Source: Octopus vulgaris (taxonomy: Eukaryota). From it: 64,000 bases of DNA. Below are positions 41,511 through 44,631 of this stretch, piece after piece. The notes below the pieces were generated by a model that had not been told where the DNA came from, ran no database searches, and worked only from the letters and a program-made list of their open reading frames with translations. Where the stretch lies: contig OX597817.1 in assembly GCA_951406725.2 (NCBI GenBank), positions 172,980,001 to 173,044,000 of the forward strand. Reading direction: 5' to 3'. Position numbers and translations under genes: made by a program. Position 1 is the stretch's first letter, and the number at the start of each line of letters is the position of its first letter.

Positions 41511-43663
41511 TAGATGATAGATATTAGGAGTTAATACTAAGAATTATCATTAGCATTATTAGATTCAGAGACCTTATTAATACATATTTTATCAATTCTT
41601 TTGTTAATGCTAGTATTTCTGATAGGTTTCTGTCTGCTACTACAGTTATTGTTATGACTTGTTTTGAGTATTTGATGATTCTCATATTTTATTTTTATTC
41701 TTGGAAACATTAGTAATATTGATAGTTCTTGTTGGTGTATTAGTCTATGTTACTAATACCATCTTTTATTATTTGTTAGCACATTAACTTGTCTCAATAC
41801 AGCGCTCTTGCAATTATTACCAAATTTATCACTCTTCTTAGTTGGAGATTTCAAATAATAGATATTATCCGAAAAACAGACATTCTTTTCTACTCTAGGT
41901 AAAAGGCCCAAAATTTTGGGGGAGGTGGGGCAGTCGATTAGATCAACTCCAGTACAAAACTGGTACTTAATTCATCGACTCTGAAAGGATGAAAGGCAAA
42001 GTCAATATCGCTAAGCATTTTGCCCAGCGTGCTAACATTTCTGCCATTTCACCACCTTAATGATAATGATGACAATAAAACTGATGATGGTAATGATGAT
42101 GATCTTTAGTTATAGAAGTATTTCTATCCTTAAAAATCTTATATTCAACCTGAGCAATTGTATAAGTATTCTCAAAGATTTTCTATTGGTTGAGTATAAG
42201 ATTCAGTTTAATATTATAGATATATTTTATTTTTTTATCACACCCACTTTTCAATGAAACTTTATTACTAGCAGGACTTATGAATATTTCCTGGAATTAC
42301 TGGTAAACCTATTGGGTTATTTCTGAAATCTTTATCCCAAAAACCTGACAGTGTAGTCTGTGTCATGTCTGTATCAAAAGATAGTCATTCATCTGCTAAT
42401 CATAGAAAAGTGAAGGAAATTGGAATACGATGATTACTTAATGAACTTTCTATACTTTATGCATGATTTTATAGACTTACTACACAGCACTTTCCCTCTG
42501 TCTCTCTCTCACTCTTTACCTTACCCTCTTTTAATCTCTTCTTTTTCTTTTGCTCTTTGCCTTTCCCTTCAACTGGTCACATGAAAAAAGTATTACAGAC
42601 AGGATAAGTAAGTAATGGAGGAAAAAACTTAGTTAAAAATGAAGTAATTACACATTTCACTCACCACCACCTCTCCACCCCTTCCCCATTTCTCTCCTTC
42701 CCTCCCACCTCTACACTGTGTCTTAGAGAAATACAAGATGGTTACCTGAGATCAAACATCACCAGTACCTTATCTTTAATTCATTAAAAGTCAAAATATC
42801 TGATTATAAGATTAAAATTTCCCAGGTTATTAACTTCCATTTTATACAAATATTTACAATACACATATCTATATTATATCTATTGAACCAATCAAAACGT
42901 AGCAATATCCTAACCACCCAAACAACAAATATACATATACAGGAATAAGACGCCCTTGATGAAGATCAGAAACAGATCAAAGAGATAAAAATGAAGTATT
43001 GATATGACTACTGTAAATATCCACTCTAAAGAGAGAATGTTCTGGGTTATTAATCCTAATATGGAATTCTAATGTGATCACAAGATCACAAATTTTTAAT
43101 ATAGACATGAGGATACAAATTTATACAAATTTTTACTATGAGCACAAGTGCATAAATTTCCGATATGGACACAGAGGCATAAATTGTGTTCATATAAATG
43201 AACACAAAAGGCACACATTTTAGGGAAAGAGAGTATATGTGTGTGTGCATATGTATACATGCATATATATACATATATACAGATACATGCATATATACAT
43301 AAAACTTGGATATGTTTTGACCAAAGATTGGTCCAGGCCATATCTAACTTAATAGCACATACATATATGTATATATACATACATATATATATATATATAT
43401 ATATATACCTACATATGCAGATATGTATATATATACTTATATATATATATACTTACATATACAGATATGTATATATACATAGATATATATATATATATAT
43501 ATATATATATAGATAGATAGATAGATAAATAGATAAATATATATATATATATATATATATATATATATATATATATATATACGATACAATAATTGTTTCT
43601 TGTCAGGAACAAAAAAAGGTTTAATAGGACTGCAATAGAAGTGCTCTATTGGAAGAGACAAAA

Positions 43664-44631
43664 ATATCAAACTAAAATCATTAACAAGCAAATGCAAGGT
43701 CATCCGCATATCATTTCATAATTCGAACATTTAATTATAGAATAAACATATAACCCGCAAGATGGAACAAAATTCATATGTACAGCACGTAATAATAATA
43801 ATAATATATGGTATGGTGCGAGAAAAATTCTTATCATTAAAACTTAGAATTAATATTCTAGTGATTCAAAGAGAATACATTTATAAAAGGACGTAGAAAG
43901 TAAAATATAATATAAGTAATATATAAAAATATATAGGTATATAAAAATATAGGCATATAAAAATATATAAAACATATATAAATATATATACATATAGGAG
44001 CATATAAAAAATATAATATATATACATATATCATGTAAATAAAGTAAAATAAGGTTCATCGTTTAGAAATCTTAATCAGGTAAAGTAAGCCTTATATATA
44101 AGAAGGAAATCATGTTTACTTATCCCTATGGCCATTTTAGGGGTGTATTATATTTAAAACACTGAATGCATTCAGTGCTTTTAAATATAATACACCCCTA
44201 AATGGCCATAGGGATAAGTAAACATGATTTCCTTCTTATATATAAGGCTTACTTACTTTATTTACATGATATATGTATATATATTATATTTTTTATATGC
44301 TCCTATATGTATATATATTTATATATGTTTTATATATTTTTATATGCCTATATTTTTATATACCTATATATTTTTATATATTACTTATATTATATTTTAC
44401 TTTCTACGTCCTTTTATAAATGTATTCTCTTTGAATCACTAGAATATTAATTCTAAGTTTTAATGATAAGAATTTTTCTCGCACCATACCATATTATTAT
44501 TATTACGTGCTGTACATATGAATTTTGTTCCATCTTGCGGGTTATATGTTTATTCTATAATTAAATGTTCGAATTATGAAATGACATGCGGTTGACTTGT
44601 ATTTGTTTGTTCAATGATTTTAGTTTGATAT
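43664..44631. repeat. Long spacer-less inverted repeat (palindrome), arms about 460-500 bp
   Basis: Centre ACTGAATG|CATTCAGT at 44168/44169; the ORF track gives the same peptide on opposite strands (43850-44059 minus, 44202-44450 plus). Confidence 0.97.

What the first reader, a model, noticed from the sequence alone, without database searches (positions are those of the whole stretch)
43582..44631. About 970-bp spacer-less palindrome between (TA)n tracts, with near-identical inner arms and diverged outer tips
Seen: arms 43664-44168 and 44169-44631 meet with no spacer at ACTGAATG|CATTCAGT. The inner 400 bp or so match except for two 1-nt indels, a small microsatellite length difference and a 37-nt segment (44048-44084) present only in the left arm, bounded by aagtaa microhomology. 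The outermost 50 bp or so carry about six differences. The left arm has an unpaired extension of about 80 bp (43582-43663), and the unit lies between (TA)n tracts. No other copy occurs in the window. Established: long spacer-less AT-rich palindromes extrude cruciforms and are unstable; if transcribed they give long dsRNA, a substrate for ADAR and Dicer, and coleoid cephalopods edit RNA heavily. Inference: either a fold-back insertion of a microsatellite-associated element (unequal inverted arms are typical of Penelope-like insertions) or a hairpin-RNA locus. The centre-to-tip divergence gradient suggests arm-to-arm homogenisation.
Basis: partly seen in the sequence, partly recalled or inferred. 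Interest (0 to 1): 0.75.

Follow-up and report, generated by a model that had tools for sequence, protein, structure and literature searches.

The report
Head-to-head Penelope retroelement ends in microsatellite
This 1-kb DNA palindrome is two cut-short ends of a Penelope-type jumping gene joined head to head inside a TA repeat, a shape that other copies in this genome share, so it is mostly ordinary transposon debris, though its inner arms were likely made identical after insertion.

Summary
The palindrome is in the assembled sequence as described. Each arm is the 3' end (pseudo-LTR) of a dispersed Penelope-like retroelement. Longer copies carry an RT plus C-terminal GIY-YIG-type frame with the Hydra-clade motifs. 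The family has two fixed ends 82 nt apart, mostly on (TA)n. All 36 true head-to-head pairs seen, this one included, have one end with the 82-nt tail and one without. That explains the left extension and argues against a fold-back artefact. Only the zero spacer is uncommon (3-4 of 36). The 37-nt segment is a deletion in the right arm. The fold-back cuts through the family's hammerhead motif, so no intact ribozyme remains here. The gradient is really a step. The inner arms differ at 0 of 364 columns, against 5-7 to the nearest other insertion, and the centre is a perfected quasi-palindrome, so later arm-to-arm copying is likely. The tip differences are mostly alleles of another subfamily on the left arm. 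No read data confirm the junction, and expression was not testable. Verdict: new member of a known kind, useful as a mechanistic test case.

The parts
43359..43581 (.). Left (TA)n-type microsatellite, the target tract
   Evidence: 38 of 45 tail ends and 46 of 53 no-tail ends of the family abut mostly-TA flanks
43582..43663 (-). [quoted passage not shown]
   Evidence: 0 substitutions against several other subfamily-A tails
43664..44168 (-). Left arm: 5'-truncated pseudo-LTR of the Penelope-like element (element sense is the minus strand)
43682..43710 (-). Tip patch: subfamily-B letters at 43694, 43698, 43703 and 43710 in an otherwise subfamily-A arm, plus a private one-base loss near 43682
44046..44082 (-). 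37-nt family segment kept in the left arm and deleted from the right arm (between 44254 and 44255) across a short direct repeat
44123..44151 (-). 3' half of the family's type I hammerhead motif; the CUGANGA half is lost by truncation and the G of GAAA is changed
44160..44177 (.). Fold-back centre. The family has AGGG where the window has GAA (44164-44166), the complement of family TTC at 44171-44173: a perfected quasi-palindrome, unique in the genome
44169..44631 (+). Right arm: second 5'-truncated pseudo-LTR, ending at the family's no-tail end
44187..44214 (+). Same hammerhead half in the right arm, with the G of GAAA missing
44628..44715 (.). Right (TA)n tract

Best explanation
The palindrome is two 5'-truncated ends of a Penelope-like retroelement with Hydra-clade motifs, joined head to head in a (TA)n tract, likely made in one integration event and likely homogenised in its inner part afterwards. 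Shown: both arms read inward from the flanks as antisense (first-strand cDNA orientation). One starts at the family's tail end and one at the no-tail end, 82 nt apart; both start sites read GATAT in the element's sense strand and so share ATAT with the target. Inferred: the GIY-YIG nuclease nicks both strands of (TA)n, each 3' end primes reverse transcription at one of the two sites, and the two truncated cDNAs anneal by a few bases and are filled in. Here both stopped at nearly the same point inside the hammerhead's stem II loop, leaving almost no spacer. Inferred: hairpin or cruciform repair then perfected the centre and copied new mutations between the inner arms, the right arm lost 37 nt, and a short stretch of the left tip came from a subfamily-B copy. 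The locus codes for nothing and has no intact ribozyme.
For: Dispersed family: 69 matches from 40 scored of 1,339 first-look candidates, best copies 92-96% identical. Long copies run into an 806-aa open frame with DKT, YRDD, CxCX5C, CxxC and CxH (L055); RWR is in L056 and L058. 37 of 37 facing pairs at 70 sites are tail plus no-tail, or 36 of 36 without L056, whose tail runs into the ORF; a motif-based recount gave 29 of 29. Inner arms: 0 of 364 columns differ, against 7 and 5 to the nearest other insertion; 19 other pairs have 40 differences in 3,358 columns against 42 to nearest neighbours (P about 0.013 on the pooled rate, 0.003 on its own neighbour distance). A CpG-type T at 43862/44438 is on both arms here; it is in 4 of 33 exact genome matches, and the two other carriers each have C in another inverted piece of the same insertion. 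L088 (8-nt spacer) also shows 0 of 195. Tail on one end, palindromes at the inverted junction and two RT start sites are published (PMC8557442, PMC3846280, PMC11167929).
Against: Pfam gave only a sub-threshold GIY-YIG hit on the C-terminal part (E 0.006-0.01) and nothing on the whole frame; Rfam listed no hammerhead at E up to 5; no homologue among the 120 shown is named as a Penelope element. Clade membership rests on motifs, not on a tree. The window was picked for near-identity, and without it the zero-spacer versus spaced contrast is not significant (1 of 286 against 39 of 3,072 columns, P 0.13). Older near-symmetrical pairs L100 and L196 are not homogenised. Shared letters could come from an unsampled source copy. 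Arms that differ in subfamily letters (here and L016) are not what one RNA template gives without later exchange. 33 of 70 sites showed no facing partner in the DNA fetched.
Confidence: 0.88

Rival explanations
1. Same element and same insertion event, but no later homogenisation: the insertion is young, and both arms inherited their private letters from a source copy that is not in this assembly.
For: Both cDNAs of one event should start out identical. Some spaced pairs are also very close (L032 8 of 1,675, L057 6 of 1,697). The contrast without the window is not significant.
Against: In 19 other pairs arm-to-arm distance equals nearest-neighbour distance (40 against 42), so private sources are not the rule. 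The centre holds GAA where the family has AGGG, which needs copying from the other arm at or after joining. The arms have gathered several indels but no inner substitution.
Confidence: 0.3
2. Assembly or polishing artefact: a fold-back chimera, or a real pair whose arms were made identical or given foreign letters by consensus calling.
For: No contig of 6 public runs bridges the centre. The centre 20-mer occurs once in the genome. Several changes cluster within 30 nt of the centre.
Against: A fold-back would mirror the tail and the left flank. Instead the right arm stops at the family's second fixed end, as in 35 of 35 other true pairs, and has its own flank. Spaced pairs in the same assembly keep their arm differences. 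The existence of the pair is hard to explain as an artefact; the exact letters near the centre are less secure.
Confidence: 0.07
3. A host hairpin-RNA locus kept for function, feeding Dicer or ADAR.
For: The strand folds into one long hairpin (-472 kcal/mol with DNA parameters). Any read-through transcript would be double-stranded (inference).
Against: It is one of dozens of similar transposon pairs, the arms are still 94-96% like other copies, and no host exon was found among 148 frames tested (frames under 65 aa untested). No sign of selection was found.
Confidence: 0.04

Closest known systems
Hydra clade of C-terminal EN+ Penelope-like elements, including Hydra-1_Obim of Octopus bimaculoides (PMC8557442, section 11 and File S1 row)
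   Same: DKT, RWR for RWK, CxCX5C linker, CxxC and CxH around the conserved E and N, C-terminal GIY-YIG, hammerhead in the pLTR, (TA)n target, head-to-head truncated copies with a tail on one end.
   Different: The tail is 82 nt, against the 30-40 bp given in that paper. The element is longer than 3.4 kb (L055), against 'generally <3 kb'. It was not compared with Hydra-1_Obim by sequence.
Poseidon of Anolis carolinensis, PAc (PMC11167929)
   Same: Two internal RT start sites mark the two ends of the tail; AT-rich target; both target strands cleaved and extended in vitro.
   Different: In PAc the start sites and hammerhead lie inside the ORF start and are described as not homologous to the cut DNA. 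Here the tail ends about 40 nt before the first ATG, the hammerhead is about 550-620 nt upstream of the tail end, and both start sites share ATAT with the target.
Penelope elements of Adineta vaga (PMC3846280)
   Same: Inverted pLTRs with palindromes at the inverted junction, optional 31-bp tail on one of them, microhomology-mediated deletions.
   Different: The palindromes quoted there are 18-38 bp at the junction; here the whole unit is a palindrome of about 970 bp with no ORF left.
Twin priming of mammalian L1 (recalled, not read here)
   Same: Two target nicks prime two cDNAs that join by microhomology and give a 5' inversion.
   Different: As recalled, L1 twin priming copies non-overlapping parts of the RNA. 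Here the two cDNAs usually overlap by hundreds of bases.

Membership tests
Penelope-like elements (EN+) | Single ORF with RT and C-terminal GIY-YIG endonuclease | tested here: met
   806-aa open frame in L055 with FDI, YRDD and a C-terminal YIG region. Pfam GIY-YIG hit is below the curated cut-off; no Pfam RT hit. The window itself holds no ORF.
Penelope-like elements (EN+) | pLTRs in tandem or inverted arrangement, with 5' truncation | tested here: met
   Inverted pairs at 37 of 70 sites; pLTR-tail-ORF tandem in L058.
Penelope-like elements (EN+) | Optional tail at one end | tested here: met
   36 of 36 true pairs have one tail end and one no-tail end; length is 82 nt rather than 30-40.
Penelope-like elements (EN+) | Hammerhead motif in the pLTR | tested here: met
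   CTGANGA and GAAA cores with a palindromic helix III in 31 of 48 distinct contexts; nearly unchanged in L198, which is about 81% identical overall. Rfam did not list it. Broken in both window arms. Cleavage not tested.
Penelope-like elements (EN+) | RT groups with PLE and telomerase RTs in a tree | not tested
   No named reference PLE protein was returned; the PDB sequence search gave no significant hit.
Hydra clade | DKG changed to DKT; RWK-type motif | tested here: met
   DKT in L055; RWR in L056 and L058.
Hydra clade | [quoted passage not shown] | tested here: met
   CxCX5C at residue 659, CxxC at 757, CxH at 786 of the L055 frame. Absence of CCHH was judged by eye only.
Hydra clade | Insertion into (TA)n | tested here: met
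   84 of 98 outer ends have mostly-TA flanks (38 of 45 and 46 of 53).
Hydra clade | Phylogenetic placement with described Hydra families | not tested
MITE or foldback DNA transposon | Fixed matching terminal inverted repeats, no RT | tested here: not met
   The two ends always differ by the tail, arm lengths vary freely, and long copies run into an RT frame.
Hairpin-RNA / endo-siRNA locus | Transcription across both arms with small RNAs or hyper-editing | not testable with these tools
   No raw RNA reads were offered for this stretch.

The most novel reading that the evidence does not exclude
Every head-to-head insertion of this family is made from one RNA primed twice: the two nicked (TA)n strands anneal to two GATAT sites 82 nt apart, and the downstream-primed polymerase displaces the upstream cDNA. 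This forces one tail end and one no-tail end (36 of 36). When both cDNAs stop at the same point, the spacer-less palindrome then corrects its own arms. This would be a genomic read-out of how Penelope elements build inverted repeats, with target-RNA microhomology that was not reported for PAc.
Probability: 0.35. Interest if true: 0.55.

Novelty: new member of a known kind. Interest (0 to 1): 0.3.

Why it matters
As a locus it is ordinary: a dead fragment pair of a known retroelement type, not a hairpin-RNA gene on present evidence. Its value lies with the family. How Penelope-like elements form inverted repeats and tails is named as an open question in PMC8557442. This young family gives a strict tail/no-tail rule, a long tail, matching start motifs and a copy with an 806-aa open frame, so the double-priming model can be tested directly. 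It also shows that these elements seed long, spacer-less AT-rich palindromes (3-4 of 36 pairs), the kind of sequence known to be unstable (PMC7999016).

Tried and rejected
Public runs: no RNA holder listed, which is no evidence on expression. Six DNA or unlabelled contig sets were laid (X1 and X7 twice) and none bridges the centre; uninformative. Rfam returned only low-complexity miRNA-type matches below their cut-offs and no hammerhead. Pfam on the whole frame and the PDB sequence search gave nothing significant. The protein atlas gave no result. The earlier-findings look-up returned nothing. A family-wide tip gradient: the pooled excess at the tips (43 of 1,002 columns) is inflated by misaligned L016 and by short-armed pairs; six long pairs show 4 of 279 at tips against 20 of 2,177 inside, so it was rejected as a general rule. 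A reciprocal flip between the arms to explain position 107 was considered and is not needed: the left tip haplotype also exists in L072 and L091. The G at 44085 is not counted as shared, because the right arm's G can come from the deletion joint. L057 and L097 show equal arm ends but have long inner segments, so they were not counted as zero-spacer pairs. Host gene: 148 of 240 candidate frames were scanned; three sub-threshold low-complexity hits only.

Full report
Observation. Positions along the left arm are written q (q1 = window 43582); values measured against the natural copy L055 run a few bases lower beyond q225.

What the arm is. A search of the window's genome (2.8 Gb, 227 contigs) with the left arm gave 69 matches from 40 scored of 1,339 first-look candidates, the best at 92-96% identity. 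Later searches mostly returned the same sites, so the young part of the family is probably some tens to about a hundred sites; this is an inference, not a count. Copies begin sharply at q1 or q83, mostly on (TA)n, and continue past the window's centre. Long copies run into a reading frame: L055 has 806 open codons with DKT, FDI, YRDD, CxCX5C, a YIG region, CxxC and CxH, and L056 and L058 add RWR and the frame's start. These are the features listed for the Hydra clade of Penelope-like elements, which insert into (TA)n and include an Octopus bimaculoides family (PMC8557442: passages, section 11 in full, supplement rows). Library support is weak: a sub-threshold GIY-YIG hit, none on the whole frame, and 720 homologues at E up to 1e-20, of which the 120 shown are unnamed or hypothetical, one from Argonauta hians at 37%. 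No tree was built. The organism was not determined.

Orientation and tail. The element's sense strand points outward in both arms, so each arm reads inward from its flank as first-strand cDNA. The 82-nt left extension is the tail: in L056 and L058 it runs on into the ORF, about 40 nt before the first ATG. Both fixed ends read GATAT in sense, which shares ATAT with the target. Of 70 sites examined, 37 show facing arms and all 37 are one tail end plus one no-tail end; dropping L056 leaves 36 of 36, the window included; 33 sites showed no facing partner in the fetched DNA. Earlier counts on smaller sets gave 27 of 27 and 29 of 29. A tail on one end only is published as 'often' (PMC8557442), and two RT start sites with extension of both strands were shown in vitro for PAc (PMC11167929, parts 1-2 of 4 read). 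Palindromes at inverted junctions are described in PMC3846280 (passages). Most pairs have unequal arms; near-zero spacers occur in the window, L080, L088 and nominally L100.

Hammerhead. The family carries a type I motif with a 4-bp helix I, long helix II and palindromic helix III, like those described in PMC4209133 (passages). Both cores are present in 31 of 48 distinct contexts, and the motif is nearly unchanged in an older copy of about 81% overall identity. Rfam did not list it, and the fold energies are not unusual (z -1.6 and -0.9). The window's fold-back lies in the helix II loop; both arms lack CUGANGA and the G of GAAA.

Arm differences. Against 59 subfamily-A rows, both arms share derived letters at q281, q444, q452 and q571 and are altered at q557 and q578. 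Over q131-585 they differ at 0 of 364 filtered columns, while the nearest other insertion differs by 7 and 5. In 19 other pairs the two numbers are alike (40 against 42 in 3,358 columns). P is about 0.013 on the pooled rate and 0.003 on its own neighbour distance, but the window was chosen for near-identity. The three young near-zero-spacer pairs have 1 difference in 650 columns against 39 in 3,072 (P 0.004); without the window P is 0.13. Older pairs L100 and L196 are not homogenised. The T at q281 occurs in 4 of 33 exact genome matches: both window arms, and one piece each of two insertions whose other inverted piece keeps C. At the centre, family AGGG is replaced by GAA, the complement of the bases three to five places right of the axis. 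I put later arm-to-arm copying at about 0.6. The tip is different: the left arm has subfamily-B letters at q113, q117, q122 and q129 behind a subfamily-A tail, the same five-site haplotype occurs in L072 and L091, and L016 shows a similar mismatch between its arms. Ectopic conversion or a template switch is the likely source; the two cannot be told apart here.

Mechanism. Shown: family identity, end types, target, orientation, broken hammerhead, one-sided deletion. Inferred: double nicking and double priming; joining by short microhomology (many junctions overlap by 1-4 nt); one RNA template, because two free choices of start site would give same-type pairs half the time; later hairpin repair. 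Against the one-RNA step: the arms that differ in subfamily letters need a later exchange.

Artefact and function. A fold-back chimera would mirror the tail and flank; this one ends at the family's second fixed end. Public contigs do not bridge the centre, which is uninformative. No host exon was found among 148 of 240 candidate frames. Expression could not be tested.

Literature. Four searches were run. 'Twin priming' with 'Penelope' gave 3 papers, seen as listings only, none on this subject by title or abstract start. Older Penelope papers in subscription journals were not searched and may already propose this model. bioRxiv 10.64898/2026.07.22.740005 (passages) added nothing specific. PMC7999016 (passages) supports the instability of spacer-less palindromes. 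L1 twin priming, quasi-palindrome correction and the Tx1 label are recalled, not read here.

Verdict. New member of a known kind; interest 0.3.

Noticed in passing
L176 1299-6474 (G000:C25, about 39.285-39.290 Mb) and L104 3241-8406 (G000:C11, about 51.598-51.603 Mb): Two different insertions of this family hold a 5.2-kb LINE (zf-RVT hit) at the same base, q684/685-701, duplicated as a target site of about 17 bp. The LINEs are 98.7% identical and the host arms 96.8%, which favours two site-specific insertions over one LINE carried as cargo. The 2 other exact 5'-end matches of 4 lie outside this family, behind an identical 17-mer; all four upstream sites fit TCC-N8-ATAC. Tx1-like is a recalled label.
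   Followed up: partly
Family position q685-720 (L009, L012, L015, L027, L029, L182, L184 and others): 11 of 108 arms end in this 36-nt stretch, 2 of them because of the LINE, and only 11 reach beyond q750. It may mark the RNA's 5' end in the pLTR; the sample is biased by the queries used.
   Followed up: partly
window 23274-26121, minus strand: A separate LINE in three frames: AP-endonuclease (E 3e-14) and RVT_1 (E 2e-36).
   Followed up: partly
window 40259-41052, minus strand: Three short tblastn matches to the family's protein (E 3e-6 to 9e-5), probably a decayed older relative about 2.5 kb left of the palindrome.
   Followed up: no
L006, L007, L085 (G000:C28, 7.11, 10.46 and 10.60 Mb): Three copies with the same truncation point and the same 60 flanking bases: segmental duplicates of one insertion, so not independent.
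   Followed up: partly
L055 3487-5904, residues about 450-490: An asparagine-rich stretch between the RT and the endonuclease, like the N-rich inserts described in Adineta Penelope elements (PMC3846280).
   Followed up: no
G000, many contigs: Many related RT copies at 40-48% identity, dozens with open frames of 800-1,090 codons: other, probably young, families of this type.
   Followed up: no
window 44760-45100 and 45230-45610: High-copy short interspersed repeats right of the palindrome; very high contig depth from 44758 on and many inverted pairs of similar repeats in the window.
   Followed up: no
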